Under the pieces are notes generated by a model. The model saw nothing but the letters and a program-made list of their open reading frames with translations. It was not told the origin of the DNA and did no database searches. Source: Candidatus Algichlamydia australiensis (GTDB taxonomy: Bacteria > Chlamydiota > Chlamydiia > Chlamydiales > JAJFMI01). From it: a stretch of 64,000 bases of DNA. Made by a program: the position numbers and the translations under genes. The stretch is from NCBI GenBank assembly GCA_033977065.1, contig JAXCHI010000002.1, positions 358,866-422,865 on the forward strand, given 5' to 3'. Below are positions 1 to 39,889 of this stretch, piece after piece. Positions within the stretch are counted from its first letter, which is position 1; each line of letters begins with the position of its first letter.

Positions 1-24
1 GATTAGCTATACTTTGATCTATCT

Positions 25-109
25 GGAAGAGTGGCAGAGTGGCCGAATGCGTCTGTCTTGAAAACAGAAGTGCCGCAAGGTACCGGGGGTTCGAATCCCT
101 CCTCTTCCG
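25..109 (+). tRNA. tRNA-Ser(TGA), long variable arm, CCA not encoded
   Basis: Acceptor stem GGAAGAG/CTCTTCC plus G discriminator; anticodon arm TCTGT-CTTGAAA-ACAGA; variable arm GTGCC-GCAA-GGTAC; T-loop GGTTCGAATCC. Confidence 0.96.
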
Positions 110-702
110 AATTTATCGATACAATCTTCAATAATAAAATTGTGATACATGCGAATTTGGGATGAGAACCCAAGGGGTTCGACGGCCAGCATTGCTGGAC
201 GGGGCTTTCGAACGAAGAGAGAAAGAGCCCGAAGGGCCGGAGGACGTAGTCCGTAGCCAATCCCTCCTCTTCCGAATTTATCGATACAATCTTCAATAAT
301 AAAATTGTGATACATGCGAATTTGGGATGAGAACCCAAGGGGTTCGACGGCCAGCATTGCTGGACGGGGCTTTCGAACGAAGAGAGAAAGAGCCCGAAGG
401 GCCGGAGGACGTAGTCCGTAGCCAATCCCTCCTCTTCCGAATTTATCGATACAATCTTCAATAATAAAATTGTGATACATGCGAATTTGGGATGAGAACC
501 CAAGGGGTTCGACGGCCAGCAATGCTGGACGGGGCTTTCGAACGAAGAGAGAAAGAGCCCGAAGGGCCGGAGGACGTAGTCCGTAGCCAATCCCTCCTCT
601 TCCGAATTTATCGATACAATCTTCAATAAAACAATTAGGATACAGGTAAGCTTGGGATGAGAACCCGTGGGTTCGACGGCCAGCATTGCTGGACGGGGCT
701 TC
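94..702 (+). repeat. tRNA-linked tandem repeat: three near-identical 165-bp units plus a degenerate partial fourth unit
   Basis: AATCCCTCCTCTTCCG (the last 16 nt of the tRNA) recurs at 94, 259, 424 and 589, period 165. Unit 3 differs by one base; unit 4 diverges and stops near 702. Confidence 0.95.
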
Positions 703-921
703 CAAGCTTATGGGAGATCAAAAGACTGCTCACGAGATACTCATTGAGTTTTTTAGAATTTTCGGCTCGACCTATCGGTACAGCAGTTATTCAGTGCTTC
801 CTTAAGGAAGTTATTTAAGAATTATTTATTTTTTGGTATCATTGTTGTCTAAAGGATGTTTTGTATCCTAAAAATCCATTTAATTATAGAATTATAACTA
901 TTTTTATAAAAAGGTTTTTTT

Positions 922-1917
922 ATGAATAAAGAGATAAATATTGAGTTAATAGGTGTTGGAAAATACTTACCTTCAAGAAAGGTTGCAGCTTCTGGAATTG
1001 ATAATACATTAAAAACGAAATTAGGCTGGTCTCTCAATGCAACAGGAGTAAAATATCGTTTCTTTTCAGATGGTGAAACTTCTTCTGAAATGGGTGCTAA
1101 AGCAATAAATGAAGCAATAAAAAACACTAATATTTCCAAATTTGATTTTGACGCACTCGTTAGCGTAGGTGGAACAACACAGCAGCCAATTCCTTGTACA
1201 GCATCATTAATTGCAGCTCAACTTGGCTTAAGAAAAGGATTGATTGCTTTTGATGTTAACGCTACTTGTTTAGGATTTCTTGTTGCACTTGATCTTTTAG
1301 CAAAACAAATTTCTCTTGGCTGTTATAACAGAGTGGCACTTGTTGCTTCTGAAATTGCTTCTGAAGGTCTAAACTGGCAGCAAAAAGAGAGTGCAGCTCT
1401 TTTTGGTGACGGCGCTGCAGCCGTTATTATTGGTCCAGGAAAAAAAGGAGGGAGCAAAATCATTGCAAGCCACTTTGAAACCTATTCTGAAGGTGTAGAG
1501 TTTTGCCAAATTCGCGGTGGTTCCGCAAAGCTACATGCAAAGTATCACTCTAAAGAAAATAGCTCAGAATACTTGTTTGATATGCATGGCTCTAGCTTAT
1601 TTAAGCTGGTCATGAAAAAATTGCCTAGTTTTCTTAAGGATCTTCTTGCGCAAGCAAATCTTGCTTTAAGTGATATTGATCTTGTAATTCCCCACCAAGC
1701 AAGTTTATCTGCTCTGACTTTGTTAAGAAAACGTCTTGGCCTTTCTGAAAAAAAATTCTTTATTAACGTTCACGAGCACGGAAATATTATTTCAGCTTCT
1801 ATTCCATTAGCTTTGCATGATGCACTTAATCAAGATCGAATTCAACGTGGTAATAAAGTTCTGCTTCTAGGTTCTTCAGCAGGAGTCTCTTTAGGAGGAG
1901 TGGTTCTTGAGTATTAG
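922..1917 (+). CDS. 3-oxoacyl-ACP synthase III (FabH/OleA-like condensing enzyme)
   Basis: Cys-His-Asn triad motifs DVNATCLGF, PHQAS and HGNIISAS; FGDGAAA. Confidence 0.9.
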   Translation: MNKEINIELIGVGKYLPSRKVAASGIDNTLKTKLGWSLNATGVKYRFFSDGETSSEMGAKAINEAIKNTNISKFDFDALVSVGGTTQQPIPCTASLIAAQLGLRKGLIAFDVNATCLGFLVALDLLAKQISLGCYNRVALVASEIASEGLNWQQKESAALFGDGAAAVIIGPGKKGGSKIIASHFETYSEGVEFCQIRGGSAKLHAKYHSKENSSEYLFDMHGSSLFKLVMKKLPSFLKDLLAQANLALSDIDLVIPHQASLSALTLLRKRLGLSEKKFFINVHEHGNIISASIPLALHDALNQDRIQRGNKVLLLGSSAGVSLGGVVLEY

Positions 1918-3058
1918 CAAAACCATTCTTATTACTGGAGCTCGAGCTCCAGTTGCGTTAGACTTGGCCCGTTTGTTATCTGCAAGCGGTGCTCGGGTTA
2001 TGGTTGCTGAGACGAGTAAAAAACATTTATGCCGTTTTTCAAATGCAGTAGAGAGGAGTTTTGTGGTTCCTGCTCCCATTTACAGTTCAAAACATTTTAC
2101 AAATGCAATTATTGAACTTGTTAAATGCCATCAAATTGATGTGATTGTACCAATGTGCGAAGAAGTATTCTTTTTAGCAGAAAGGCATAGTGACATTTCT
2201 TCAATTTGTACTCTTCTCTGCGATCCATTATCAAAACTTGAGCCTCTTCATAACAAAGAGAAATTTATTAAATTATTAGAGAATATAGGCTTGCCTTTTC
2301 CTGAAACTGTTTTGTTAACATCTAAAAATGCTGTCAAATCTGCGGCTGAAAGATGGAAAAAAACAGTATTTAAACCAGTCTATTCTCGTTTTGCTCGGCA
2401 AGTAGTAATTTGTGAAGGAGAAAATACAGCTAAGGCAGAGTCTATCATCCCTACAAAAAGTCAACCATGGATCGCTCAAGAATTTATTGAAGGTAGGCGT
2501 CTTTGTTCTTATGGCTTTGCGCGTAATGGCAAGCTCTTAGCCCATGTCACCTATCCTGTAGAATATTGTGTAGGTGAAACGGGATCTGCTCTTGCTTTTA
2601 GAAGTATTGAACATTCACTATCATTTCAATTTGTCCAAAATTTAGTTAAGTTTCTTAATTTTACAGGTCAAATCAGTCTAGATTTTATCGAAAGGCATGA
2701 TGGAACTCTTGTCGCAATTGAATGTAACCCACGAGCAACTAGTGGCCTGCATCTATTCAATTCATCTGACAAACTTCCTTCTGCCATGATTGAAGGTAAG
2801 CATGTCGCATATTTACCTGAAGGTCGAAAAGGACAACTGTTAATTCCTCTGCTTTTATTGGGAGGGATAAAGTTAAAGCCTAAAAAATTATTAAATATAT
2901 TTTTCTTTGGTAGAGATGTAATATTTTCCCTAAAAGATATTTTACCTGCTCTCTTCTCACCCTTGCTTCTGATCTATTACGCTTTGCAAGGATATAGAAA
3001 AAACATGACGATTACAGAGGTATCTACATATGATATCGAATGGAATGGGGGTTTATGA
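1907..3058 (+). CDS. ATP-grasp domain protein
   Basis: N-terminal ILITGAR; HNKEKF, VFKPVYSR, AQEFIEG and IECNPR ATP-grasp motifs; TTG start overlaps the upstream gene. Confidence 0.85.
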   Translation: MSISKTILITGARAPVALDLARLLSASGARVMVAETSKKHLCRFSNAVERSFVVPAPIYSSKHFTNAIIELVKCHQIDVIVPMCEEVFFLAERHSDISSICTLLCDPLSKLEPLHNKEKFIKLLENIGLPFPETVLLTSKNAVKSAAERWKKTVFKPVYSRFARQVVICEGENTAKAESIIPTKSQPWIAQEFIEGRRLCSYGFARNGKLLAHVTYPVEYCVGETGSALAFRSIEHSLSFQFVQNLVKFLNFTGQISLDFIERHDGTLVAIECNPRATSGLHLFNSSDKLPSAMIEGKHVAYLPEGRKGQLLIPLLLLGGIKLKPKKLLNIFFFGRDVIFSLKDILPALFSPLLLIYYALQGYRKNMTITEVSTYDIEWNGGL

Positions 3059-4047
3059 GAGTAGCTGTCACAGGTGCAACGGGTTTTTTAGGACAACAAA
3101 TTGTTGCGAAATTACTAAAGAAAAAGTGTGATGTTATCGCTTTAGGTCGCAATAAAAAAATTGGCTCAAATCTTGGAGAAATGGGCGCAAGGTTTGTGAA
3201 AGCAGACTTAAATTCTTGGAAGGAGATGGCTTGTGCTTTTGATGGTTGTTCTGCTGTCATTCACTCTGCTGCACTCTCTTCCCCATGGGGTTCAAAAAGA
3301 GCTTTTTATGAAGCTAATGTTCTTGGAACTCGAAATGTTTTAAGAGCAATAGAATTTTCTAATGTTCAACGAATCGTCCATATCTCAACTCCAAGCGTAT
3401 ATTTTGATTATACAGATCGTTTGCAGATTTCTGAAGATGAGCAATTACCGCGAAAGATGGTGAATCAATATGCTCGATCAAAGTTGGAAGCTGAAAAAAT
3501 TGTTATGAAGGCTTTTGAGCAAGGGCTTGAGACAATAATCATTAGGCCTCGCGCACTATTCGGCCCTGGCGATACAACTCTTTTTCCTCGACTAATTAAG
3601 GCAAATAATTTGATTGGTATTCCTATTACAAATCCTAAACCAATTTTGACAGACCTGACGTATGTCGAAAACGCAGCAGACGCTGCTTTGCTCTGTTTAA
3701 ACGCTTCTCGAATTTGTTTGGGAAAAGCTTATAACATTACAGATGGGGAGCCCACTTCATTAGAAGAGCTCCTCAAAGGCCTATTTTCTTCGTTGAATGT
3801 TTTTTTTCGTAAGCGACGAGTCCCATACTCACTTGCATTTGGTTTGGCTCTTTTTTCGGAAGGAATTGGAACTTTGATTGGCAAAGAACCAAGTTTAACA
3901 AGATATGGAATAGGGGTTCTTAGTAGGAGCATGACCCTCGATATATCACGAGCCAAAATGGAACTTGGGTACCATCCACAGGTTCGTACTCAAGAAGGGA
4001 TTGCACGCTTCATATGCTGGTGGAAATCGGGTGGTGCTAATGGTTAA
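3055..4047 (+). CDS. NAD-dependent epimerase/dehydratase (extended SDR, 3-beta-HSD/OleD-like)
   Basis: VTGATGFLG, YARSK (YxxxK), IRPRALFGPGD; ATGA overlap at 3055-3058 supports this start. Confidence 0.9.
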   Translation: MRVAVTGATGFLGQQIVAKLLKKKCDVIALGRNKKIGSNLGEMGARFVKADLNSWKEMACAFDGCSAVIHSAALSSPWGSKRAFYEANVLGTRNVLRAIEFSNVQRIVHISTPSVYFDYTDRLQISEDEQLPRKMVNQYARSKLEAEKIVMKAFEQGLETIIIRPRALFGPGDTTLFPRLIKANNLIGIPITNPKPILTDLTYVENAADAALLCLNASRICLGKAYNITDGEPTSLEELLKGLFSSLNVFFRKRRVPYSLAFGLALFSEGIGTLIGKEPSLTRYGIGVLSRSMTLDISRAKMELGYHPQVRTQEGIARFICWWKSGGANG

Positions 4048-4861
4048 AGTTACTCTACTCAATACCGGATACTGCAGAGCTTGGGGGAAAATTGCAGTAA
4101 ATTGTTGGAGCTGGCAGAGACGTTCTTTTCCTGCAATAGTAGCTATGATAGAGCATCCAAAAGAAGGAATTATTTTATTTGATACTGGTTACAGTGAGTC
4201 ATTTTTTTCTGCGACAAAGAAATTTCCTTACCGTTTTTATCGTTGGATTACACCCATATACCATAAGAATCAAGAATCGGTGAAGCATCAGCTTGAAGCT
4301 CGCGGATTTGGAGCTGACGATGTGCGCGCAATTTTTATTTCTCATTTTCATGCAGATCATCTATGTGGACTGTGTGATTTTGATAAGGCTAAGTTCTTTT
4401 GCTCAGGCACATCTGCAAGAGAAATTAAAAACCTTAGAGGAGTTTTTGCTTTGCGAAAAGGGTTCTTACCAGACCTTCTTCCTAATGACTTTTTTACTAG
4501 GACACAATATCTAGAAAATCTTCAGCTAAAAAATGTTGGGATACCCAACTCCCCATTTGAAATGGGAATTGATTTATTTCATGATCGCTCTATTGTAGCT
4601 ATTTTTTTACCAGGTCACGCTCAAGGGCAGATGGGCTTACTTATTGATCAAAAAACATTTCTAATCGCAGATGCCGTGTGGAATTGTGAAGCTGTCAGAA
4701 AGAATATTCCTCCTCATAATCTGGCTCACCTTCTCCATGAGAATAAAAAAGCTTATCTTGAGACATTTAATAAACTGCATCAGCTTTCACGTTCTCATCC
4801 GGAAATACGACTTGTTCCAACGCATTGCCCGTCGGTTTTAGAAAGTAAAGGGGGAGTATGA
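4040..4861 (+). CDS. Metallo-beta-lactamase-fold hydrolase
   Basis: LFDTG, SHFHADH (HxHxDH), PGHA, IADA and PTH metal ligands; ATG at 4040 overlaps the SDR end. Confidence 0.88.
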   Translation: MVKVTLLNTGYCRAWGKIAVNCWSWQRRSFPAIVAMIEHPKEGIILFDTGYSESFFSATKKFPYRFYRWITPIYHKNQESVKHQLEARGFGADDVRAIFISHFHADHLCGLCDFDKAKFFCSGTSAREIKNLRGVFALRKGFLPDLLPNDFFTRTQYLENLQLKNVGIPNSPFEMGIDLFHDRSIVAIFLPGHAQGQMGLLIDQKTFLIADAVWNCEAVRKNIPPHNLAHLLHENKKAYLETFNKLHQLSRSHPEIRLVPTHCPSVLESKGGV

Positions 4862-6186
4862 AAACCCCAATTCTTCCATTTATTTACAGTTATTTTAATG
4901 CCTGTCGCTCTGTAAGAAGATTTCCTTCAAAAAAGGTTTTAAAATCCTGGCAGGAAAAGCAAGTGCAACGCCACTTACACTGGTTAAGAGGGCATTCTCC
5001 CTACTATGCGCAGCGGTTGAAAAGGGTAAACATTTCTGATTGGCGACAACTGGAGACAGTAAGCAAGTCTGAGATGATGGAGAATTTTGATCGGATAAAC
5101 ACAGCTTCATTAAAAAAAGAGAAATTATTAAATTTCGCCCTTGCCAACGAAGAGAGTAGAGACTTTGGAAAAGAGGTGGGCAGATTTACTGTTGGGCTCT
5201 CATCAGGTACATCTGGTAACAAGGGATTATTCGTTGTATCTGAAAAAGAGAGGTCTTGTTGGGCAGGATATATCTTGGCACGCATGTTACCAAGGCCTCT
5301 ATGGCATAAGCAAAGAATTGCTCTTTTTTTACGCTCAGGAGGCCCCCTTTATCAAAGTACAGGTGGAGTGAGAATACAATTCCAATATTTTGATATATTT
5401 AAATCCCTTGATGAGCACTTAGACGCTTTGCAAGAGTATCAGCCTACTCTTATCGTGGGGCCACCATCTGTACTGAAATTTCTCGCTGAAAAAATTTCAG
5501 CTGATAAGCTTTTAATTAAGCCAGAGAAAATCGTTTCAGTAGCTGAAGTATTGGATCCAATTGATCAAATCCGTATTGAGAATGCCTTTGGTTTCCCGAT
5601 TCATCAGGTCTATCAAGCTACTGAAGGGTGCATTGCCTCAACTTGTTCTCATGGTACCCTGCACTTACATGAGGATCTAATGTGCATTGAAAAAGAAGTA
5701 GTTGACCTATCGTTTAATCGCTTCGTACCGATTATCACAGATTTTTCCCGCACTACTCAACCAATTGTGCGATATAGACTAGATGACATTTTAGTTGAGA
5801 AAAAGACCCCATGCCCCTGTGGATCTATATTTACCCAACTTGAAAGCATTGAGGGACGTTGTGATGATACGCTGGTATTTGAATCTAAAGATAAAAATAC
5901 TTGTGTAGCGATTTACCCCGATTTTTTTAGACGATGTGTTGCTTTTTCCTCTAACCAAATATTTGAGTATCGAATTGTCCAAACAAATTTTGACCAGCTA
6001 CTAATCGAGTTTTCTTCCCTTTCTAAGGAACGAGAGAGAATAAAGAAAAAGATCTATAAAGAGTTAGTACAGCTTTTTACTCAAAAAAATGTTGCCATAC
6101 CAGATATAAGCTATTCTTTATGGAAACCGCATCCAGTTCATCAAAAAATGAGGCGTGTGTTTCGGAAATTTGATATTTATGAGTGA
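4858..6186 (+). CDS. Adenylate-forming enzyme (F390 synthetase / PaaK-like family)
   Basis: SSGTSG loop, YQATEG, RYRLDD and EGRCDD motifs; ATGA overlap with the MBL gene. Confidence 0.87.
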   Translation: MKTPILPFIYSYFNACRSVRRFPSKKVLKSWQEKQVQRHLHWLRGHSPYYAQRLKRVNISDWRQLETVSKSEMMENFDRINTASLKKEKLLNFALANEESRDFGKEVGRFTVGLSSGTSGNKGLFVVSEKERSCWAGYILARMLPRPLWHKQRIALFLRSGGPLYQSTGGVRIQFQYFDIFKSLDEHLDALQEYQPTLIVGPPSVLKFLAEKISADKLLIKPEKIVSVAEVLDPIDQIRIENAFGFPIHQVYQATEGCIASTCSHGTLHLHEDLMCIEKEVVDLSFNRFVPIITDFSRTTQPIVRYRLDDILVEKKTPCPCGSIFTQLESIEGRCDDTLVFESKDKNTCVAIYPDFFRRCVAFSSNQIFEYRIVQTNFDQLLIEFSSLSKERERIKKKIYKELVQLFTQKNVAIPDISYSLWKPHPVHQKMRRVFRKFDIYE

Positions 6187-7327
6187 TATTCAGCTTTATT
6201 CATTTGATGAATGCAACACGATTCCATTTCCTTCTACATATGAAGGAGAGTACGCAAGAGGATTTTTTGAAGCATTTATGAAAGAGGGGGCTAAGAAATT
6301 CATCTCAAACATTGAAACGCAAATTTATTGTCTTAAAATCGATGATCACTTTTTCCCCGTAACAGTAAATAAAGCAGAGTATGATAACTCATATGTTACT
6401 TCGCCATTTGGAATCATCAAATACGCTCAAGAAGAATTGAAACGGTTTGACCACTGGTTTCTTACTCCTTTGTTAAAACCAATACTGAGAATAATAGGTA
6501 AATTTTTAAAAAAGGGTAAAATTAATCAAGTTGTTTCAGTCAATAATTGGCTATTGTCTACAAACCTTTATCCTCAAATAATACCAAAACAAATCAGTGA
6601 AGCTGTAGTGCTGCTTCAAAAAAGGTTCCCATCACATTGTATTCTCTGGCGTTCGATAAATCGAACCTATCCTCATAATTTACTAGAACACTTTAAAGAG
6701 CTACCTTGCCGCTTACTTTTTTCTAGGCAAATATATTTTTATAATCCATTTAATAAAAACTCATTAAACTCTAAGCAAAGGTGGAATATCAAAAATGATC
6801 GTAAGTTAATCCAACTTAATGATTATGAAGTTGTAACTGGCGATAAGATAAAAACTGAAGATATACCAAGGATAAAAGAGTTGTATGATCTACTCTACCT
6901 TAAAAAGTATACAGCACTAAATCCACAGTTTACAGAAGAGTTTATTCGTCTAGCTATAGATAAAAAACTTTTGACAATTATCGCCATTCGTAAAAATAGA
7001 AAAATTGATGGGATTATAGGGTATTTCACAAAAGAAAATGTAATGACAACACCCCTTTTAGGATATGATACCGCTTTGCCCCAAAAAGTCGGTCTTTATC
7101 GTATGCTTACTGCCATTTGTATTGATGAGGCGGATCGTAATAGAATTTTACTCCATCATAGTTCTGGAGCCGCCCATTTTAAGAGGGTACGTGGGATGAC
7201 AGCCGACCGTGAGTATACCGCAGTTTTTCATAAACATCTCTTTAAAAGACGCCAGATAATATGGGCTTTACTTACCTCATTTTTTAACAAAGTTGGAGAG
7301 CCAATTCTAACTCAATTTAAGCTTTAA
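6179..7327 (+). CDS. GNAT/FemAB-like acyltransferase-fold protein
   Basis: C-terminal TPLLGYD...GLYRML...HHSSGAAHFKRVRG pattern; overlaps the upstream gene. Confidence 0.65.
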   Translation: MSDIQLYSFDECNTIPFPSTYEGEYARGFFEAFMKEGAKKFISNIETQIYCLKIDDHFFPVTVNKAEYDNSYVTSPFGIIKYAQEELKRFDHWFLTPLLKPILRIIGKFLKKGKINQVVSVNNWLLSTNLYPQIIPKQISEAVVLLQKRFPSHCILWRSINRTYPHNLLEHFKELPCRLLFSRQIYFYNPFNKNSLNSKQRWNIKNDRKLIQLNDYEVVTGDKIKTEDIPRIKELYDLLYLKKYTALNPQFTEEFIRLAIDKKLLTIIAIRKNRKIDGIIGYFTKENVMTTPLLGYDTALPQKVGLYRMLTAICIDEADRNRILLHHSSGAAHFKRVRGMTADREYTAVFHKHLFKRRQIIWALLTSFFNKVGEPILTQFKL

Positions 7328-7374
7328 TATTATTCGCTCAAGTTGCTACCCCTTTCCTATAGAGTAACTTGAGT

Positions 7375-7590
7375 TTATTCTTCCCAGAATTCTTTATGAA
7401 CGGCTACGCCTCTAGTTGAGGTAGAGTCAACAACAGCGATTTTGTGGATATGCAGGGCTTTCATAACGCCTAGGGCCAAGATAGCGTTTGATGCGTCGAC
7501 GCTTGCGAAGGGATTTTTGATTTCTTCATTGCTTTTCCCAGTTGCGGTTTTGAGATATTCGCGCAGATCCTTCCTTTTGATTTCATCTCC
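7375..7590 (-). pseudogene. 3' remnant of a probable Ppx/GppA-like (ASKHA) phosphatase gene
   Basis: Startless open frame GDEIKRKDLREYLK...SNAILALGVMKALHIHKIAVVDSTSTRGVAVHKEFWEE* with an in-frame stop directly upstream; resembles Ppx C-terminal helices. Confidence 0.4.
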
Positions 7591-7679
7591 TTAAGAAGGG
7601 GCCAATTTCAATAAATATTGTATTTAACTTATAATTAATTACTTAAGTACTGCTCTCTAGAAAAAAATATGAAAAATCA

Positions 7680-7739
7680 TTGACAAGCACTAGATTTTCC
7701 TGGAAAATCTAGTGTATAGACTAGATATTCTGGAAAACT
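7680..7739 (+). promoter_or_regulatory. Sigma70-type promoter overlapped by a palindromic operator
   Basis: TTGACA at 7680-7685; perfect 13-bp inverted repeat CACTAGATTTTCC-T-GGAAAATCTAGTG at 7688-7714; degenerate second copy CTAGATATTCTGGAAAACTA running into the ATG. Confidence 0.6.
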
Positions 7740-8915
7740 ATGATTACAAGGTTATTAAAAGAAAAGTTAGATAGAGCATTGTCTAGAGGAAAGAGCGTGT
7801 TGCTTTTAGGTCCTCGTCAAACAGGTAAGACAACTTTAATTAAGAAGTATAAAGCTGATTTAGTAATCACGCTTTTGCTGTCTAAAGTAAGAAGGCGATA
7901 TGAAGTAGACCCCGACCAATTAATTCGAGAAGTACAGGCTTTGCATAAGAAAAATGGCAAACCGCCTTTGATTATTATCGATGAAGTACAAAAAGTACCT
8001 CCTCTTATGGATGGAGTTCAGTATTTAATTGACGAAAACTTGGGGCAATTTATTCTTACTGGGTCTTCTGCACGAAAATTACGTACAGGTCAACATGTGA
8101 ATCTTCTTCCAGGACGCGTTATTCAAATGCGTCTTGATCCATTTACTATAAATGAGTTCATGCATGAGAGTATTGAAGAGTATTTAAAGTATGGTTCGCT
8201 TCCTGCAATCTCATTAGAAAAAGATTCGACAAATCGAGAAGAAGAATTAGATTCTTATGTGGATTTATATCTTGAGGATGAAGTTCGCGCTGAAGCACTG
8301 GTGCGCGACATCGGTTCATTTGAAAATTTTTTGCGATTGGCAGCAATAGAATCTGGAAATATTGTCAATTTCGGAAAAATTTCCCAAGATGTAGGAGTAG
8401 CGAGTAGTACAATTTCTGCTTACTACCAAATTTTAGAAGATTGCCTTATTGTCGAGCGCATCGAGCCTTATACAGAAAGTGTAATACGCAAGAAATTAAT
8501 TCGTTCTCCTATTTATCTTTTTTTCGATTTGGGTCTGCGTCGATTGGCTGCTGCAGAACAAGCTGTTTTGCCTCAAAAGCATTTGGGAGCTTTATTTGAG
8601 CAATTTATTGGTCTAGAGCTTGTTCGCTGGGCGCGTTTACAGAAGAAAAAGATTTCCATACATTTTTGGCGGGACGCTAATGGCCCTGAAGTAGATTGGG
8701 TTGTTAAATGTGGAGAGTCGCTCATTCCTATAGAAGTCAAATGGACAGAAGCACCTTCACCTCGAGATGCAAAGCATCTTGAACTTTTTTTAAGAGAGTA
8801 TCCCGAAGCAAAAAAAGCATTTGTTGTTTGTAGAGTAGACAGGCCACAACAGTTGAAAGAGGGAATTCAAGCTATTTCATGGAAAAAACTCTATGAGGTA
8901 CTTCAACTGGAATAG
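7740..8915 (+). CDS. AAA_14 ATPase with DUF4143 and C-terminal nuclease-like domain
   Basis: Walker A GPRQTGKT, Walker B IIIDEVQ, FILTGSS, FFDLG, EVDWV...IEVK. Confidence 0.9.
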   Translation: MITRLLKEKLDRALSRGKSVLLLGPRQTGKTTLIKKYKADLVITLLLSKVRRRYEVDPDQLIREVQALHKKNGKPPLIIIDEVQKVPPLMDGVQYLIDENLGQFILTGSSARKLRTGQHVNLLPGRVIQMRLDPFTINEFMHESIEEYLKYGSLPAISLEKDSTNREEELDSYVDLYLEDEVRAEALVRDIGSFENFLRLAAIESGNIVNFGKISQDVGVASSTISAYYQILEDCLIVERIEPYTESVIRKKLIRSPIYLFFDLGLRRLAAAEQAVLPQKHLGALFEQFIGLELVRWARLQKKKISIHFWRDANGPEVDWVVKCGESLIPIEVKWTEAPSPRDAKHLELFLREYPEAKKAFVVCRVDRPQQLKEGIQAISWKKLYEVLQLE

Positions 8916-9477
8916 CATGTCCACAATTAGGAACTAATTGAGACTCTATTCCCATTCGCAAAAGCCTTTCATGAATGGGCAAATATTTTTCATCTAACTC
9001 CCCAAAAACAAACCTTACGGGCATCTCGGGAAGTTTTTCCCAGAGGTTTGGTTGTTTGGAGAGGCGGTAGTGAGCAAAGAGTTTGTGCGCCTCTTCTAAA
9101 TTTACCTGTTTGCGTCTCTGTAACATTTCAGGGAAATTTTTTGAATTGCGCAAAGAAGCGAAGAGAGGCTGCGCGTACCACTTTTCGATAAAGTCGGATT
9201 GCTTCATGACAGCAAGCCATTTTTTTTCCCAGAGAATGCGCTTGGGAATTTCTGAAGGATCAATTCCAGGATTTGCTGAGATGGCAATGACTTCCTTGAC
9301 TGCTTCAGGATATTGGTGGGTAAACATGAGCGCAATTCGTCCGCCCATAGAATAACCAATCAGAGTAAGATTTTTTCCATAGGAAAGAAGATCTGAAAGT
9401 TTTTCAGGAAGAGGAATGGCGTTGCAATTCGGAAAATCTTCCGGAGCACCGAGAAAACCAGGAAGAAATATTTTCAT
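8872..9477 (-). CDS. menH: Alpha/beta hydrolase, MenH (SHCHC synthase)-like
   Basis: LPGFLG, GYSMGGRIA nucleophile elbow, WYAQPLF, GELDEKY, GH. Confidence 0.65.
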   Translation of the reverse strand: MKIFLPGFLGAPEDFPNCNAIPLPEKLSDLLSYGKNLTLIGYSMGGRIALMFTHQYPEAVKEVIAISANPGIDPSEIPKRILWEKKWLAVMKQSDFIEKWYAQPLFASLRNSKNFPEMLQRRKQVNLEEAHKLFAHYRLSKQPNLWEKLPEMPVRFVFGELDEKYLPIHERLLRMGIESQLVPNCGHAIPVEVPHRVFSMK

Positions 9478-10157
9478 TTATATTTGTATTGTGAGAGGTA
9501 TTTTTTAAAGAGGTCGGGGTGGTTTTCTTGCACGGCAAGTTCGATTTTTTCAATTTGTTCTATCGTCATTTTTTTGGTATGAAATTGAAGGTCTTCTCCT
9601 TTTGACTGCGCGCCGCCCATCCGGCGGTAGTAGCGTATCAGGCGGTCGCGGTGGTAATTAAAATCTTCCATGTAACGGGTGAGATATTTGGGATCAGCTT
9701 CAAGAAAATGAAGAACTTTTTTCAGTTCAAGTTCAGGGTCACGCATAAGGTCTTCATAGTAGATTAGCAGACGATCTTTTTCTGGCCATTTTTCGTAAGT
9801 GTAGAGATTGGCAAAGTAGTCGTAGCTTCCTTCAATCGCTTTCAAAGTCTTTTCAAAGTTTTGAAAGTGGCGCGTAATCGCCTCGCGATAGTTGCGCACA
9901 ATCAATAGCATCCGATCGCCCTCTTCTCGAACTGCGGGCCCTCGCTGAAAGTTATGCGTGTGGATTAACGGCTCGTTTGCAGGATTTGCTCCAAGATCAA
10001 ACCACTTCCAATTCGTTTTTTGGCCGCCCACGTACCAATTGCGCTTTGTAAGATATTCTAGGCTGTAGAGCATAAAGTGTGTCCCAGAGCGTGGCGCTGT
10101 TACCAGGTAGTCTTTTGCGAAGAGGGTAAATGGTAAAAGAAAAAAAAGTACTTTCAT
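9474..10157 (-). CDS. Sulfotransferase-domain protein with signal-peptide-like N-terminus
   Basis: 5'-PSB-like APRSGTH, 3'-PB-like IVRNYREA, YEDL...L..VLHFL; hydrophobic N-terminus MKVLFFLLPFTLFA. Confidence 0.7.
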   Translation of the reverse strand: MKVLFFLLPFTLFAKDYLVTAPRSGTHFMLYSLEYLTKRNWYVGGQKTNWKWFDLGANPANEPLIHTHNFQRGPAVREEGDRMLLIVRNYREAITRHFQNFEKTLKAIEGSYDYFANLYTYEKWPEKDRLLIYYEDLMRDPELELKKVLHFLEADPKYLTRYMEDFNYHRDRLIRYYRRMGGAQSKGEDLQFHTKKMTIEQIEKIELAVQENHPDLFKKYLSQYKYK

Positions 10158-10172
10158 GTTTCTACTCTATTC

Positions 10173-12626
10173 TTATCCAATAATTTTTCTCCACAAAAGC
10201 GAGTAAAGTGGTTCATCTTTCAAAAATCTTATTTCTCGCATTAATTCGTTGTATCGCACTTCATCAATTGCTTTACCTTTCCAGATTGCTAGTTCTTTTT
10301 TTTGCTCTTCTGTGAATTTGCAATCAAGTGTTCCAATACGGTCCAATCTTGCTACATATATACCAACTTTTCCATAGTTAGCTTCTGCAAACGCTTTTGC
10401 AGCCAATCTGTGGATGATTTGAGCGGAAGCAGCTTTGTCTCCATTTTGCTCGTATATATTTGCTAACTTCCAAGCAAGTTTCGCGCTTAAAACGTAAGAG
10501 TACAATTTCTTAAGTGTCTCTTCTTCTTGTTCTGGTTGTTTTTTTATCAACCATTTTGCACATTCAACTGCAAGCTGTTCATATTGAATTTCCTTCACTT
10601 CACAAAGTAGGGTAAAAAGTCCTCTTTTTAGAAGAGTTGAATTTGGAAGATCTGCATAAGCATTCATATAAATTTCAATAGCCTTACGCGTTTGTGCTTC
10701 TTTCTGCTCCTCATTTTCATTTGCTTTTTTTAGACAATTTTCAGCCCATATTACATAGAGTTCTTGAAGCTTTTCTTGAGTTAGTATCCCTTTAAAAGTC
10801 TCGCACGAGGGGGTAATCAGTTGAATAAAGTACTCGTCATAATTGCTTTCTTGCACTTCCTTATAGAAATGAGTAACAAATTCATCGATAATCGGGGAGT
10901 GAGATGGTCCTTCTAATTCTATTCCAAATGCTTCAAATCCATGTTCTGGGTGAATCTCTGCGACCATTGATTCTATCTGATCGAGAAGAATCTCATTATA
11001 GTTAGAATTTTTACTATTTATGATTTTTTCTGCTAGAAGAACGCGTAAGGAGATGTTTGTGGGAAACGCCTTAACAGCGTTCATTAAAATAGTAATTTCC
11101 TTTTTAGGAGCACAGTTTCCTGTCCATACCAAGTAAAGCCTTATGAGTTTTTGATCATCCCAAACACGTTGAAAAAGTTGAATATTGTCGTTGATAACTT
11201 GAAAATAGTACTCATCGAAATTTTGTTCGTAGACATAGGTGTAAATTTCATTCATCATACGGTCGAGATAGAAAGAGTCTCTTTCATCTATTGAGTATTG
11301 ATGCTCGATCCATCTCACTTCTTGAAGAAGGCGATCTGTGCATTTTGGTTGTTTACATCTAAACAAAAAGAACAAGAACTTTAAGTGAAGGTAGGAATAC
11401 AAAGGCAGTACCTGTAAGCTTTTTTCGTAGATAGAAAGAGTGTTTTTGGTTCGAATTGAATGGTTAATAAGCTCAGCTTCCCAATCAAGAGGTTCAGCTA
11501 CAGAGGTAGATTGAGCACAAGATTTTGCACATGCATGATACTCTCGAGCGATTTCTACATCAGTGTAGGGTTTCCCCCGAGCTGCGATCATGCTGGAGAT
11601 CTTGTATAGATGGTCAGTGGGATTTTGGCTCAATTCAAAAGCTTTTTCGTTGTAAAAAACCGCATTTTGATATTGCTTTAGTTCAAAAAATCTGCGGGCG
11701 ATTTCTCTACATAAAATAAGTTCCTCTTTTTGTGCAAATGAGCTATTTTCCTCAAGTGTTTTGTAGCGAATGATATAGGGGAGAGGATTTTTCTCTGCTT
11801 TTTTGGTTGCTCTATTAAAATATTCAAGAGAAATTAATGGATTTTTTGGATCGTAGGTACGCAAAAATGCAAACAACAAGATAAGCATTTTTCCCTCATC
11901 CTTTGGAGCAATTTCCACAAGTTTTTCAAATGCAGCACTGGATTTGGGATCAATATTTAAAATTTTATAGCATATTTTGCGGCAGTAAGTTGCGTCAATG
12001 TCTTTCTTCAGTAAAGTTGTGTACCAGCTTAGTGCCTCTTTATTTTTATCAATAGATTGCAAGAAATCTGCTAATAGCTCTAAAGCTGAGATCGATTGGT
12101 CATTTGATAAGTAGGATTGGTAGAGAGCATTTTCTGTTTTTTGATCATTTTTACAAACAAAATGCAATATGGCCAGGTAAAGATGAGCGAGTTCTTTATC
12201 TTGTTGCAATCCTTTTGAATACTCTTTGTCTGTTGCAAGCTTAATCTGGTTTTCTAAACTTTTACAAAGGTTTTGATATACTTCTATCCAATCACTACTA
12301 TTATCTTTAAAGTTATCAGGAAGATTTGGGACTGTGCTGTTTTCCCTGCGTATCCAGTTGCTTATGCGTTTCATTGTTTCAGATACACGAGGAATAAACC
12401 GCTTTTCTAGCTCTTCTTGTGTTACCCAATCGGTGTCGTATTCTTTAAAAACAGGAAACTGTTTTGGATGTGCACCGATTTCTACGTCGAGCACGTTAAA
12501 CGTTCCCAATTCATGACCATAGACAAAAATGCGAAATGTATCTGGCTCCGGACCTAATTGGAATAGGCAAGCTCCTGAAGGATGGAAGAAGGCTTTTTTG
12601 TAGGGAAAAGCATTTGTGACAAGCAT
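10173..12626 (-). CDS. Large alpha-helical / TPR-like hypothetical protein
   Basis: 817-aa ORF with TPR-like helices (A..YY.KA..L.P pattern); no recognisable enzyme motif. Confidence 0.7.
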   Translation of the reverse strand: MLVTNAFPYKKAFFHPSGACLFQLGPEPDTFRIFVYGHELGTFNVLDVEIGAHPKQFPVFKEYDTDWVTQEELEKRFIPRVSETMKRISNWIRRENSTVPNLPDNFKDNSSDWIEVYQNLCKSLENQIKLATDKEYSKGLQQDKELAHLYLAILHFVCKNDQKTENALYQSYLSNDQSISALELLADFLQSIDKNKEALSWYTTLLKKDIDATYCRKICYKILNIDPKSSAAFEKLVEIAPKDEGKMLILLFAFLRTYDPKNPLISLEYFNRATKKAEKNPLPYIIRYKTLEENSSFAQKEELILCREIARRFFELKQYQNAVFYNEKAFELSQNPTDHLYKISSMIAARGKPYTDVEIAREYHACAKSCAQSTSVAEPLDWEAELINHSIRTKNTLSIYEKSLQVLPLYSYLHLKFLFFLFRCKQPKCTDRLLQEVRWIEHQYSIDERDSFYLDRMMNEIYTYVYEQNFDEYYFQVINDNIQLFQRVWDDQKLIRLYLVWTGNCAPKKEITILMNAVKAFPTNISLRVLLAEKIINSKNSNYNEILLDQIESMVAEIHPEHGFEAFGIELEGPSHSPIIDEFVTHFYKEVQESNYDEYFIQLITPSCETFKGILTQEKLQELYVIWAENCLKKANENEEQKEAQTRKAIEIYMNAYADLPNSTLLKRGLFTLLCEVKEIQYEQLAVECAKWLIKKQPEQEEETLKKLYSYVLSAKLAWKLANIYEQNGDKAASAQIIHRLAAKAFAEANYGKVGIYVARLDRIGTLDCKFTEEQKKELAIWKGKAIDEVRYNELMREIRFLKDEPLYSLLWRKIIG

Positions 12627-12682
12627 AAAAGACTCCTGAAAAATTTAAAGATTAGATTGGAATTTACTACTCTTTAAGAAAT

Positions 12683-38781: not shown

Positions 38782-39889
38782 GGCCTTGTTGCGTAAATAG
38801 CTGCGGATAAAGACTTTCTTGTCAAAATTTCAGTAAGACTTTAAATTTTTGTTAATCACTACGAAGATTTAGAGGTTACATGAAAGAGACAAATAAAAAG
38901 TACATCATCCGCAACTGGTCTGAATATAACAAATCCCTGAAAAAAAGAGGAAGCATCACTTTTTGGTTGTCGCCAGATGCTATTGAGAAATGGCTCTCAG
39001 ACGGAAAATCTAAAAGAGGAAGACCCGAAATATATTCTGATGATGCCATTCTTTGCGCCTTGATTATCAAGTCAGTTTACCACCTGCCCTATAGGGGATT
39101 AGCAGGTTTTTTGGAAACTCTAATGATTCTATTAGGAGTGGCGCTACCAGTGCCGTGTTACACCCGTATATGTAGGAGGGCAGGGAAACTCGGAAAAGAA
39201 GTAGCAAAAATAAGCAAAAAGCAGCCGGCAGATATCGTCATTGATTCAACAGGATTAAAAGTATACGGAGAAGGCGAATGGAATGCACGTAAACACGGTA
39301 AGAAAAAGAGAAGAACCTGGCGCAAACTGCATTTAGCGACATGTCCTGATAGCCACGAAATAGTTTTAAGCAAACTAGGAAAGAATAGTGAAGGAGACAG
39401 CCAAGCTGGAAGAAAAATCATGAAAAAGCTGCCTAAAAAAGTAAAAAGAGTCTATGGAGATGGAGCCTACGATACAAAAGAGAGCTATAGGGAATTAAAA
39501 AAGCAAACCGATAATCCCGCCGCAGAAAAATGGAGTGAGGCACGAATTAGAAAAAGAGCCGTGGATGAGAGATAGAAATGAAGCGTTAGAGGCAATTAAA
39601 GGACTAGGAGGAGACGAAGAAGGAAGAAAAATTTGGAAGAAATTAATAGGATATCATAGGCGATCAATGGCAGAAACAGCGATGTATCGATTCAAAACGA
39701 TATTTGGTGACAAACTGAAAACCCGCAAGCTAAAAAATCAAAGAGCAGAAGCATACGCGAAGAGTGTAGCGATGAATAAAATAAGCAGTCTAGGGATGCC
39801 GAAAGGCGAATGGATAACAATCTGAGTAAGAGAAAGAAAAAAAGAAACGGGCCACGACTTTCTTCAATTGCTATTTACGCAACAAGGCC
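38782..39889 (+). mobile_element. IS5-family (IS903 group) insertion sequence, 1108 bp
   Basis: 20-bp TIRs GGCCTTGTTGCGTAAATAGC; 9-bp target duplication TTTCAGCTT at 38773-38781 and 39890-39898. Confidence 0.93.
38880..39825 (+). pseudogene. IS903-like transposase, frameshifted near 39505
   Basis: NWSEYNKSL..RGSITFW, IDSTGLKVYGEGEW, WRKLH and GDGAYD in one frame; IIPP and GYHRRSMAETAM in the +1 frame. Confidence 0.88.

What the first reader, a model, noticed from the sequence alone, without database searches (positions are those of the whole stretch)
922..7327. Six-gene translationally coupled biosynthetic operon with Ole-like logic plus ATP-grasp and GNAT
Seen: FabH-like, ATP-grasp, SDR, MBL hydrolase, adenylate-forming and GNAT-like genes all overlap by 4-11 bp and keep their catalytic motifs. 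Known: OleA (thiolase-fold condensation), OleD (SDR), OleC (adenylate-forming beta-lactone synthetase) and OleB (hydrolase) make olefins via beta-lactones, and ATP-grasp and GNAT/Fem enzymes commonly form amide bonds. I recall related FabH-SDR-MBL-adenylate clusters in free-living bacteria without an assigned product. Inference: an uncharacterised pathway for an acylated, amide- or lactone-containing lipid or signal in a probable intracellular symbiont. There is no ACP, regulator or exporter in the operon.
Basis: partly seen in the sequence, partly recalled or inferred. Interest (0 to 1): 0.75.

Follow-up and report, generated by a model that had tools for sequence, protein, structure and literature searches.

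The report
Conserved orphan lipid-type biosynthetic operon
Six tightly packed genes in a chlamydia-like bacterium form a real operon that also occurs in many free-living bacteria; it probably builds a small modified fatty-acid-like molecule whose identity nobody has yet determined.

Summary
Six + strand genes (922-7327) overlap by 11, 4, 8, 4 and 8 bp and keep their catalytic residues. They encode a FabH-type ketosynthase, an ATP-grasp ligase, a 3beta-HSD/OleD-like SDR, an MBL hydrolase, a TIGR02304 'F390 synthetase-related' adenylate-forming enzyme and a tandem-GNAT (Fem/MprF-like) protein.

The host is a Chlamydiales bacterium. The same gene order recurs in 38 of 80 loci fetched from other phyla. 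The constant core is ketosynthase + SDR + MBL + adenylating enzyme. That core alone sits in 674 of 5426 complete E. coli genomes, next to PAP2, hydroxylase and desaturase genes.

Natural fusions link the ATP-grasp with the GNAT, the SDR with the MBL, and PAP2 with the adenylating enzyme.

The Ole analogy is only partly right. The ketosynthase is FabH/CorB-like, lacks the OleA/NocG glutamate, and scores far below OleA relatives. The SDR scores well under the OleD cutoff.

Most likely a carboxylic acid is activated, extended by one Claisen condensation, released and reduced to a beta-hydroxy acid. The ATP-grasp/GNAT pair then amidates or aminoacylates it. The product is unknown. Ten literature searches found no description of the cluster.

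The parts
815..842 (+). promoter-like site (TTAAGA-16-TATCAT with upstream TG) about 80 bp before g1; weak evidence only
   Evidence: The number of such sites in 1-9000 equals the shuffle expectation (23 found against a mean of 22.8), so this is a position, not a demonstrated promoter.
922..1917 (+). g1: FabH-type ketosynthase III (331 aa), Cys116-His258-Asn288 triad
   Evidence: NF005541, 401.3 bits against cutoff 402; FabH subfamily, 240 bits; best solved relatives 4v2p 'ketosynthase', CorB, FabH; triad invariant in 22 of 22 aligned homologues
1907..3058 (+). g2: ATP-grasp carboxylate-amine ligase (383 aa, TTG start), PRK06849 family
   Evidence: ATP-grasp_3, E 1e-9; PRK06849, 348 bits, below cutoff 406; AF2 pLDDT 93; Foldseek: L-amino acid ligases 3vot and RizA, PurK, PylC; TM about 0.6
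3055..4047 (+). g3: extended SDR of the 3beta-HSD/OleD/NSDHL type (330 aa; alternative start 3040)
   Evidence: 3Beta_HSD, E 6e-37; OleD models 220 and 215 bits, cutoff 580; HpnA 151 bits; NSDHL, 87.6 bits; S111/Y139/K143 invariant in 73 sequences
4040..4861 (+). g4: metallo-beta-lactamase-fold hydrolase (273 aa; alternative start 3965), full binuclear metal site
   Evidence: Lactamase_B, E 8e-13; weak AttM and pyridoxolactonase hits; HxHxDH, H193 and D211 invariant, H262 in at least 90%, 76 sequences; a fused SDR-MBL form exists
4858..6186 (+). g5: TIGR02304 'F390 synthetase-related' PaaK-type adenylate-forming enzyme (442 aa)
   Evidence: 484 bits, cutoff 252; PaaK 4r1l, 37 bits; 494 representatives at E<=1e-30
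6179..7327 (+). g6: tandem-GNAT (Acetyltransf_6/FemAB_like-related) transferase (382 aa; alternative start GTG 6155)
   Evidence: 19 of 33 homologues hit Acetyltransf_6, 5 of 33 FemAB_like; pLDDT 92.4; MprF C-domain, FemX, Sba18/Sbb17, VipF
7336..7374 (+). terminator-like hairpin (12-bp stem) followed by UUUAUUCUU, just after the g6 stop codon
   Evidence: -15.5 kcal/mol; z -3.23; 0 of 200 shuffles fold as well

Best explanation
What is shown. This is one instance of a widespread but experimentally uncharacterised biosynthetic gene cluster. Its constant core is a FabH-type ketosynthase (g1), a 3beta-HSD/OleD-like reductase (g3), an MBL hydrolase (g4) and a PaaK/F390-type adenylate-forming enzyme (g5). 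The ATP-grasp ligase (g2) and the tandem-GNAT protein (g6) are an optional pair that works together.

The proposed route (inferred step by step, not shown):
1. g5 activates a carboxylic acid, probably fatty or otherwise hydrophobic, as an acyl-adenylate and passes it to a thiol (CoA or the g1 cysteine).
2. g1 extends it by one Claisen condensation with an already acidic methylene donor. That donor is malonyl-ACP/CoA from housekeeping FAS II or a beta-ketoacyl thioester, because g1 lacks the glutamate base needed to deprotonate a plain acyl chain.
3. g4 and g3 act back to back. g4 hydrolyses the thioester or a lactone, and g3 reduces the 3-oxo group, giving a stable 3-hydroxy acid.
4. g2 (acyl-phosphate chemistry) and g6 (acyl-CoA or aminoacyl-tRNA donor) attach amino acid or acyl groups.

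The product would be an amide-containing, lipid-like amphiphile. In other lineages the same core is dressed instead by lipid glycosyltransferases (GT21), PAP2 enzymes, desaturases or hydroxylases, or sulfotransferases.
For: Real, coupled operon with intact catalytic residues.

Conservation across the 80 loci anchored on g5 (best 80 of at least 582 relatives in GTDB species genomes):
- 38 have the order 1-2-3-4-5-6.
- 19 have 1-2-3-4-5.
- 70 hold g1, g3, g4 and g5 together; 6 of the other 10 are cut by contig ends.
- g2 is in 62 and g6 in 46.

Core alone. E. coli carries KS-SDR-MBL-F390 followed by PAP2, a 'sterol desaturase family' gene and an acyl-CoA desaturase, between narI and purU. This is in 674 of 5426 complete genomes. 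Its proteins are 35-40% identical to g1, g3, g4 and g5. Ketogulonicigenium and Paracoccus plasmids carry the core with a divergent TetR regulator and a sulfotransferase.

Fusions:
- g2-g6: 15 proteins of 750-870 aa. In P0241 residues 3-382 match g2 (35%, E 2e-62) and residues 413-763 match g6 (37%, E 6e-82).
- g3-g4: an Atlas cluster of 634 aa and 53 members, TM 0.94 to g4.
- PAP2_3-g5: P0260, 642 aa.

Lipid context:
- GT21 occurs in 4 loci (L017, L018, L027, L071), all of which lack g2.
- PAP2_3 lies upstream in L037.
- A fatty-acid desaturase lies in L075, and an MFS-acyltransferase-AMP-binding fusion in L066.

Chemistry:
- g1 is closest to 4v2p, CorB and FabH.
- g1 has I90, P91 and C92 at the positions 24-26 residues before the catalytic Cys, where NocG, PpyS and OleA have Glu.
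- The nearest named families of g3 act on 3-oxo/3-hydroxy acids: OleD and NSDHL.
- The fold of g2 matches L-amino acid ligases.
- The fold of g6 matches Fem/MprF/Sba18-type transferases.
Against: - No substrate or product is known for any member, so the order of steps and the starter acid are inference.
- The best, though weak, named relatives of g4 are lactonases (AttM 55 bits, 4-pyridoxolactonase 31 bits), not thioesterases. The MBL-thioesterase idea rests on my recollection of PqsE.
- PaaK-type enzymes need not make CoA esters. F390 synthetase adenylylates a hydroxyl group (established knowledge).
- The g5-PAP2 fusion could mean that g5 acts late, on a membrane lipid, rather than first.
- No ACP or CoA-handling gene is in the operon.
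- The donor of g6 (acyl-CoA or aminoacyl-tRNA) cannot be told from the fold.
- The lipid-type accessory genes are in other lineages, not in this window.
Confidence: 0.45

Rival explanations
1. Ole-like beta-lactone route. g1 joins two acyl chains head to head, g3 reduces the 2-alkyl-3-oxo acid as OleD does, g5 closes a beta-lactone as OleC does, and g4 opens or decarboxylates it. g2 and g6 then add amide groups.
For: - The best named family for g3 is OleD (220 and 215 bits, E 4e-65).
- The best named relatives of g4 are lactonases.
- An adenylate-forming enzyme follows in the operon.
- g3 and g4 occur fused, which fits consecutive steps around a hydroxy acid or lactone.
Against: - g1 scores about 54 bits to the OleA chains against 204 to 4v2p and 179 to FabH.
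- g1 has no Glu at the base position.
- g3 is far under the OleD cutoff of 580.
- g5 belongs to the PaaK/F390 branch; its AMP-binding score of 28 bits is below the cutoff. By my recollection no beta-lactone synthetase is known in that branch.
- g4 is not an OleB-type alpha/beta hydrolase.
Confidence: 0.15
2. Pyrone or lactone signal route. g1 works like CorB or MxnB and fuses two beta-ketoacyl chains into an alpha-pyrone or related lactone. g4 is a lactonase that opens or tunes it. The product is a diffusible signal or antibiotic.
For: - The two best solved relatives of g1 are 4v2p (deposited as 'ketosynthase'; MxnB by my recollection) at 203.6 bits and CorB at 181.9 bits.
- g4 is lactonase-like.
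Against: - The margin over ordinary FabH is small (Aquifex FabH 178.8 bits).
- No PKS or carrier proteins that could supply beta-ketoacyl chains are nearby.
- The accessory genes in variants (GT21, PAP2, desaturases) fit a membrane lipid better than a pyrone.
Confidence: 0.1
3. Pseudopeptide route. g5 activates an amino acid or aryl acid. g1, g3 and g4 make a gamma-substituted beta-hydroxy (statine-like) acid. g2 (L-amino-acid-ligase-like) and g6 (Fem-like, aminoacyl-tRNA-dependent) add amino acids to give a small protease-inhibitor-type peptide.
For: - The best structural matches of g2 are L-amino acid ligases (3vot, 4wd3).
- g6 matches FemX and the aminoacyl-tRNA-dependent peptide synthases Sba18/Sbb17.
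- g2 and g6 occur fused.
Against: - The core occurs without g2 and g6 in many genomes and then sits with lipid enzymes.
- Nothing in g5 points to amino acid substrates.
Confidence: 0.1
4. Salvage or degradation module rather than biosynthesis. The genes would take up and remodel an external lactone, acyl-amide or lipid, for instance one from the host.
For: - MBL lactonase-like enzymes often degrade signals (family names).
- The host is an intracellular-type bacterium.
Against: - A condensing ketosynthase with an intact triad, plus two ATP-dependent ligases, is an anabolic set.
- The cluster is common in free-living soil bacteria.
Confidence: 0.05

Closest known systems
OleABCD olefin / beta-lactone pathway
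   Same: A thiolase-fold condensing enzyme, a 3beta-HSD-type reductase, an adenylate-forming enzyme and a hydrolase sit in one operon. The best named family for g3 is OleD.
   Different: g1 is FabH/CorB-like and lacks the Glu base. g5 is PaaK/F390-type, not OleC-type. The hydrolase is an MBL, not an alpha/beta hydrolase. There are extra ATP-grasp and tandem-GNAT genes.
PqsA/PqsD/PqsE steps of alkylquinolone synthesis (recalled from the literature, not read here)
   Same: An acid-activating ligase, a FabH-like condensing enzyme that uses malonyl-CoA, and an MBL-fold enzyme that releases a beta-keto acid. PqsD is a detectable relative of g1 (97.6 bits).
   Different: There is no anthranilate pathway context. 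Here a reductase is fused or adjacent to the MBL. g4 shows no specific similarity to PqsE in my searches (one search lists only lactonases).
CorB / MxnB head-to-head pyrone ketosynthases
   Same: They are the closest solved structures to g1, with the same Cys-His-Asn triad and a hydrophobic residue at the OleA-Glu position (alignment).
   Different: Those enzymes work on carrier-bound PKS chains inside large assembly-line clusters. None is present here.
NocG / PpyS non-decarboxylative ketosynthases (PMC9486936, passages read)
   Same: Stand-alone FabH-like enzymes paired with a fatty-acid-activating enzyme.
   Different: They need a catalytic Glu (NocG E100, 25 residues before C125). The g1 family has I90, P91 and C92 at those positions.
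L-amino acid ligases, and Fem/MprF/Sba18-type aminoacyl transferases
   Same: The g2 and g6 models superpose on them.
   Different: Sequence identity is 7-19% and TM-scores are 0.42-0.62. No peptidoglycan or phosphatidylglycerol context. The donor and acceptor are unknown.
NCBIfam TIGR02304 / PRK07204 / PRK06849 (computational families without a tested function)
   Same: g5 passes the TIGR02304 cutoff. g1 misses PRK07204 by 0.7 bit. g2 scores 348 of the 406 bits needed for PRK06849.
   Different: These are names, not functions. No experiment is attached to them in the ten literature searches I ran.

Membership tests
OleA (head-to-head thiolase) | Catalytic Glu about 24-26 residues before the active-site Cys (OleA E117/C143, as quoted in PMC9486936) | tested here: not met
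   g1 has I90, P91 and C92 at positions -26 to -24 from C116, nearly invariant in 22 homologues. The register is inferred from spacing and from the printed 4v2p alignment, not from a direct OleA alignment.
OleA (head-to-head thiolase) | Closer in sequence to OleA than to FabH | tested here: not met
   The chains I take to be Xanthomonas OleA (3row, 3s21, 4ku2 and others; identity recalled, deposited as 'synthase III') score about 50-55 bits with partial matches. Aquifex FabH scores 179 and E. coli FabH 133.
OleD (2-alkyl-3-oxoalkanoate reductase) | Score at or above the NCBIfam equivalog cutoff | tested here: not met
   220.2 and 214.7 bits against cutoffs of 580. OleD is still the best named relative.
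OleC-type beta-lactone synthetase | Class I ANL (AMP-binding, PF00501) enzyme | tested here: not met
   PF00501 scores 28 bits, below the cutoff of 29.9, over 87 residues only. g5 is TIGR02304/PaaK-like.
OleB | Alpha/beta-hydrolase fold | tested here: not met
   g4 is Lactamase_B. No alpha/beta hydrolase lies in the operon.
FabH (KAS III) | Cys-His-Asn triad and a score above the subfamily cutoff | tested here: inconclusive
   The triad is present and invariant. NF006829 scores 240 against 249 and TIGR00747 scores 229 against 292, both just below cutoff.
TIGR02304 F390 synthetase-related | Score above the trusted cutoff, full length | tested here: met
   484.3 bits against 251.9, covering residues 8-438 of 442.
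Conserved KS-(ATP-grasp)-SDR-MBL-F390-(GNAT) cluster | Same six genes in the same order in unrelated genomes | tested here: met
   38 of 80 loci have 1-2-3-4-5-6, and 70 of 80 hold the four core genes. The B. mycoides plasmid p237 is annotated with the same six genes.
Fem / MprF aminoacyl-tRNA-dependent transferases | Tandem-GNAT fold | tested here: met
   Foldseek probability 1.0 to MprF C-domains, FemX and Sba18/Sbb17, with TM 0.42-0.51.
Fem / MprF aminoacyl-tRNA-dependent transferases | Use of aminoacyl-tRNA as donor | not testable with these tools
   The fold is shared with acyl-CoA users (VipF, N-myristoyltransferase).
Bacterial ceramide pathway (Spt, bCerS, CerR) | PLP-dependent serine palmitoyltransferase in or near the cluster | tested here: not met
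   No aminotransferase-fold gene was found in the window operon or among the neighbours scanned. An Atlas neighbour of g6 is fused to an alpha-oxoamine synthase, which is only a lead.

The most novel reading that the evidence does not exclude
The cluster family makes a sphingolipid-like membrane lipid without serine palmitoyltransferase. A FabH-type ketosynthase would supply the C-C bond, and the SDR would play the 3-keto reductase.

The optional genes mirror the later sphingolipid enzymes:
- tandem GNAT, like an N-acyltransferase;
- GT21, like ceramide glucosyltransferase;
- PAP2_3, like phospho-headgroup transferases;
- FA-hydroxylase-family and desaturase genes, like sphingoid hydroxylases and desaturases.

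These correspondences are recalled from general knowledge of the families, not tested here. A chlamydia would then make its own mimic of a host lipid class that its pathogenic cousins steal (also recalled).
Probability: 0.08. Interest if true: 0.85.

Novelty: new variant of a known kind. Interest (0 to 1): 0.55.

Why it matters
The window itself holds one more copy of a cluster that is common but orphan.
- At least 582 relatives of g5 were found in species genomes.
- g5 has 494 representatives at 50% identity with E<=1e-30.
- The four-gene core is in about one in eight complete E. coli genomes, including Nissle 1917 and urinary isolates.
- The six-gene form sits on a conjugative Bacillus mycoides plasmid.

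A product has not been assigned in any paper my searches reached. Finding it would annotate thousands of genes at once. It could also reveal a new lipid or signal class in well-studied bacteria.

For chlamydia biology, a complete small-molecule operon in a Chlamydiales genome is unusual. It lies next to a tRNA gene whose 3' end is repeated, and so hints at acquired chemistry for life inside a host.

Tried and rejected
Literature. Ten searches were run. None returned a paper describing this gene combination.
- 'TIGR02304', 'F390 synthetase-related' and 'PRK06849' gave 0 papers.
- 'F390 synthetase' with 'synthase III' gave one paper, on ladderane genomics (PMC2649909). The passages I read concern a different cluster.
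- One search was badly framed (min_terms 1) and wasted.
- Subscription journals and preprint supplements were not searchable.

Complex prediction of g2 with g6. The result was 'no answer' (score 0.00). It counts neither for nor against binding.

Sequence search of g2 and of the g6 profile against PDB sequences. Nothing useful came back, so folds were needed.

Sulfotransferase link. The window has a sulfotransferase at 9474-10157 on the minus strand. The alphaproteobacterial clusters also have one beside the core. The proteins are not detectably related, and the window's gene is in another, opposite-strand unit. I do not count it as part of the operon.

Donor of a horizontal transfer. In the g5 tree the window protein groups only with two unnamed metagenome proteins (67% and 54% identical) on a long branch. 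No donor can be named. The tree has 84 rows; 2 of the 80 loci were left out because their g5 is truncated. It was a quick search, rooted at the midpoint.

GC content of the operon (0.38-0.41) does not differ from that of the window.

bCerS and CerR. I could not confirm the domain family of bCerS from the passages I read, so the ceramide parallel stays a recollection.

Not checked.
- Whether other Chlamydiota carry the operon.
- antiSMASH, MIBiG and cblaster comparisons, which were not available.


Full report
**1. What is in the sequence**

The stretch 922-7327 is filled by six + strand ORFs with no non-coding gap. I chose the start codons that agree with the N-termini of homologues. With those starts the genes are g1 922-1917, g2 1907-3058 (TTG), g3 3055-4047, g4 4040-4861, g5 4858-6186 and g6 6179-7327. 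The junctions then overlap by 11, 4, 8, 4 and 8 bp. The longest-ORF rule gives earlier starts for g3, g4 and g6 (3040, 3965, 6155).

Upstream lies an AT-rich 220-bp spacer with one promoter-like site (815-842). Such sites are no commoner here than in shuffled sequence. Directly after the g6 stop codon there is a 12-bp hairpin with a U-rich tail (7336-7374; z -3.2).

Nothing like an ACP, regulator or transporter fits inside the operon. The large minus-strand ORFs at 3-705 are artefacts of a tandem repeat.

**2. What the six proteins are**

- **g1** is a FabH-type ketosynthase. It scores 401.3 bits on NF005541 against a cutoff of 402 and 240 bits on the FabH subfamily model. Its best solved relatives are 4v2p, deposited as 'ketosynthase' (MxnB by my recollection), at 203.6 bits; CorB at 181.9; Aquifex FabH at 178.8; E. 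coli FabH at 132.6; and PqsD at 97.6. The chains I take to be OleA score about 54 bits. C116, H258 and N288 are invariant in 22 aligned homologues.
- **g2** is an ATP-grasp enzyme (ATP-grasp_3, E 1e-9; PRK06849, 348 bits). No PDB sequence matches it. A confident model (pLDDT 93) superposes best on the L-amino acid ligases 3vot and RizA, then PurK, PylC and GAR synthetase, at TM about 0.6.
- **g3** is an extended SDR of the 3beta-HSD type. Its best named families are OleD (220 bits, cutoff 580) and HpnA (151 bits). Its best solved relative is NSDHL (87.6 bits). S111, Y139 and K143 are invariant in 73 sequences.
- **g4** is an MBL-fold hydrolase with all metal ligands conserved. It has only weak named relatives, all of them lactonases.
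- **g5** is a full-length member of TIGR02304, 'F390 synthetase-related' (484 bits, cutoff 252). It is a distant relative of phenylacetate-CoA ligases.
- **g6** has no family above threshold. Of its homologues, 19 of 33 hit Acetyltransf_6 and 5 of 33 hit FemAB_like. Its model (pLDDT 92.4) is a tandem GNAT resembling MprF C-domains, FemX, the aminoacyl-tRNA-dependent peptide synthases Sba18/Sbb17, and VipF.

**3. Host and setting**

A chlamydial-type FabI in the window (NF004957, 510 bits) is 89% identical to proteins named 'MAG: Chlamydiales bacterium' and 76% identical to Simkaniaceae.

The operon lies about 800 bp downstream of tRNA-Ser(UGA) at 24-110. The gap is filled by 3.7 copies of a 165-bp unit, each starting with the last about 17 nt of that tRNA. 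That pattern recalls integration-site duplications. However, the GC content of the operon equals that of the window. The g5 tree places the window protein only with two unnamed metagenome proteins on a long branch. No transfer donor can be named.

**4. Conservation**

I built an alignment from 18 of the 120 listed g5 homologues, picked by hand. tBLASTn with the six window proteins (hits covering at least 40% of the query) gave these orders:

| Gene order | Loci |
|---|---|
| 1-2-3-4-5-6 | 38 |
| 1-2-3-4-5 | 19 |
| 1-3-4-5 | 7 |
| 3-4-5-1 | 3 |
| single variants and contig-end fragments | 13 |

All four of g1, g3, g4 and g5 are present in 70 of 80 loci, and 6 of the other 10 are truncated by contig ends. 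g2 is in 62 loci and g6 in 46. The loci come mostly from Paenibacillaceae and Bacillaceae. Others come from cyanobacteria, Bdellovibrionota, a Victivallaceae MAG, proteobacterial MAGs and a Legionellales MAG. These 80 are the ones most like the query, so the proportions need not hold for the whole family.

Tight or overlapping junctions are typical of the family. g5 has 494 representatives at 50% identity with E<=1e-30 among 1.84 billion.

**5. Variants tell what belongs together**

I scanned neighbours in two batches, both chosen by hand. The first was 39 of 160 ORFs from 12 loci. The second was 44 of 83 immediate co-directional neighbours. I left out short ORFs, second-downstream ORFs, near-duplicates and ORFs already scanned.

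- A classical SDR of about 290 aa follows g5 or g6 in many Paenibacillaceae: 21 of the 44 ORFs, plus L004.
- GT21 lipid-type glycosyltransferases occur in L017, L018, L027 (two copies) and L071, all of which lack g2.
- GT28-like enzymes occur in L071 and L076.
- Rieske oxygenases occur in L011 and L056.
- PAP2_3 lies upstream in L037.
- A fatty-acid desaturase lies in L075.
- An MFS-acyltransferase-AMP-binding fusion lies in L066.

In plasmid and E. coli collections:
- A conjugative B. mycoides plasmid carries all six genes.
- Ketogulonicigenium and Paracoccus plasmids carry the core with a TetR regulator and a sulfotransferase.
- E. coli carries KS-SDR-MBL-F390-PAP2-'sterol desaturase family'-acyl-CoA desaturase between narI and purU. 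This is in 674 of 5426 complete genomes, including Nissle 1917. Its proteins are 35-40% identical to the window's core proteins.

**6. Fusions**

A search for longer relatives of g6 found 15 proteins of 750-870 aa. Of these, 14 carry an ATP-grasp Pfam domain. In P0241 the N-terminal half is a g2 homologue (35%, E 2e-62) and the C-terminal half a g6 homologue (37%, E 6e-82). P0245 behaves likewise.

The ESM Atlas holds a 53-member cluster of 634-aa proteins that combine 3Beta_HSD/Epimerase with Lactamase_B, at TM 0.94 to g4. P0260 (642 aa) is a PAP2_3 domain fused to a g5 homologue.

I read these as three functional couples: g2 with g6, g3 with g4, and g5 with a membrane lipid-phosphate enzyme.

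**7. Mechanism**

*Shown.* This is a conserved operon with intact active sites. It has a four-gene core, an optional g2/g6 pair, and lipid-type decorations in other lineages.

*Inferred.*
- g1 lacks the glutamate that NocG (E100, 25 residues before C125), PpyS and OleA (E117/C143) use to deprotonate a plain acyl chain (PMC9486936, passages read). The g1 family has I90, P91 and C92 at those positions. The nucleophile should therefore be malonyl- or beta-ketoacyl-thioester, as in FabH, CorB or MxnB.
- The nearest named relatives of g3 (OleD, NSDHL) both handle 3-oxo/3-hydroxy acids.
- The g3-g4 fusion suggests that release and reduction are consecutive.
- g5 either supplies the starter (PaaK-like) or acts late on the lipid, as the PAP2 fusion hints.
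- g2 and g6 then form amide or ester bonds.

I put 0.45 on this beta-hydroxy-acid-then-amidation scheme, 0.15 on the Ole-like beta-lactone scheme, 0.10 on a pyrone or lactone signal, 0.10 on a statine-like pseudopeptide, and 0.05 on salvage or degradation. The rest is unassigned.

**8. Comparison with the known**

The operon works somewhat like Ole (condense, reduce, adenylate, hydrolyse) and somewhat like PqsA/D/E (activate, condense with malonyl, MBL release; recalled, not read here). It fails the membership tests for OleA, OleB, OleC and OleD.

It is a member of the computational families TIGR02304, PRK07204 and PRK06849, which carry no tested function. None of my ten literature searches found the cluster described. 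Subscription journals, MIBiG and antiSMASH were out of reach.

**9. Verdict**

The operon is ordinary in the sense that it is one copy of a common cluster. It is interesting because that cluster is orphan, widespread (including in familiar E. coli strains), and here sits in a chlamydial genome.

Noticed in passing
window 94-701 (with tRNA-Ser at 24-110): A tandem array of 3.7 copies of a 165-bp unit (96% matches). Each unit begins with the last about 17 nt of the adjacent tRNA-Ser(UGA). The array fills the gap between the tRNA and the operon and creates spurious 227-aa ORFs on the minus strand. It may be repeated att-like junctions of an integrated element, or a local satellite.
   Followed up: partly
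L081 (E. coli NZ_CP141085.1) 6191-13072; 674 of 5426 complete E. coli genomes: A seven-gene cluster lies between narI and purU: KS III, SDR, MBL, F390-related, PAP2, 'sterol desaturase family' and acyl-CoA desaturase. It is present in Nissle 1917 and urinary isolates. My searches found no function for it in print. The record is labelled a plasmid but carries chromosomal genes (nar, purU, hns).
   Followed up: partly
window 12683-15401, minus strand: Two overlapping ORFs (14397-15401 and 12683-14506) together match one ADP-forming acyl-CoA synthetase/Pat-type acetyltransferase. The first covers profile positions 1-294, the second continues from position 288 and adds a GNAT domain. This looks like a frameshifted or split gene.
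   Followed up: no
window 7740-8915 (+), 8872-9477 (-), 9474-10157 (-): Downstream of the operon lie an AAA_14/DUF4143 ATPase, a short MenH-like alpha/beta hydrolase (201 aa, matching only profile positions 70-242 of 252) and a sulfotransferase with a signal-peptide-like N-terminus. That sulfotransferase is unrelated to the ones beside the alphaproteobacterial clusters.
   Followed up: partly
window 38880-39575 and 59054-60280: IS5-family and IS256-family transposase genes, which suggest a mobile-element-rich region in a chlamydial genome.
   Followed up: no
L083 (Pseudomonas amygdali megaplasmid pMPPla107) 7905-11493: A g5 homologue and a g2 homologue sit close together without the ketosynthase, SDR or MBL, among dozens of hypothetical genes. 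The adenylating enzyme and the ATP-grasp can therefore travel as a pair in another context.
   Followed up: no
L031 and L038 (Brevibacillus) around 9000-10000: The g3/g4 region is replaced by short ORFs or a partial g4 (patterns 1-2-5-6 and 1-2-4-5-6). This may be decay of the core in these genomes.
   Followed up: no
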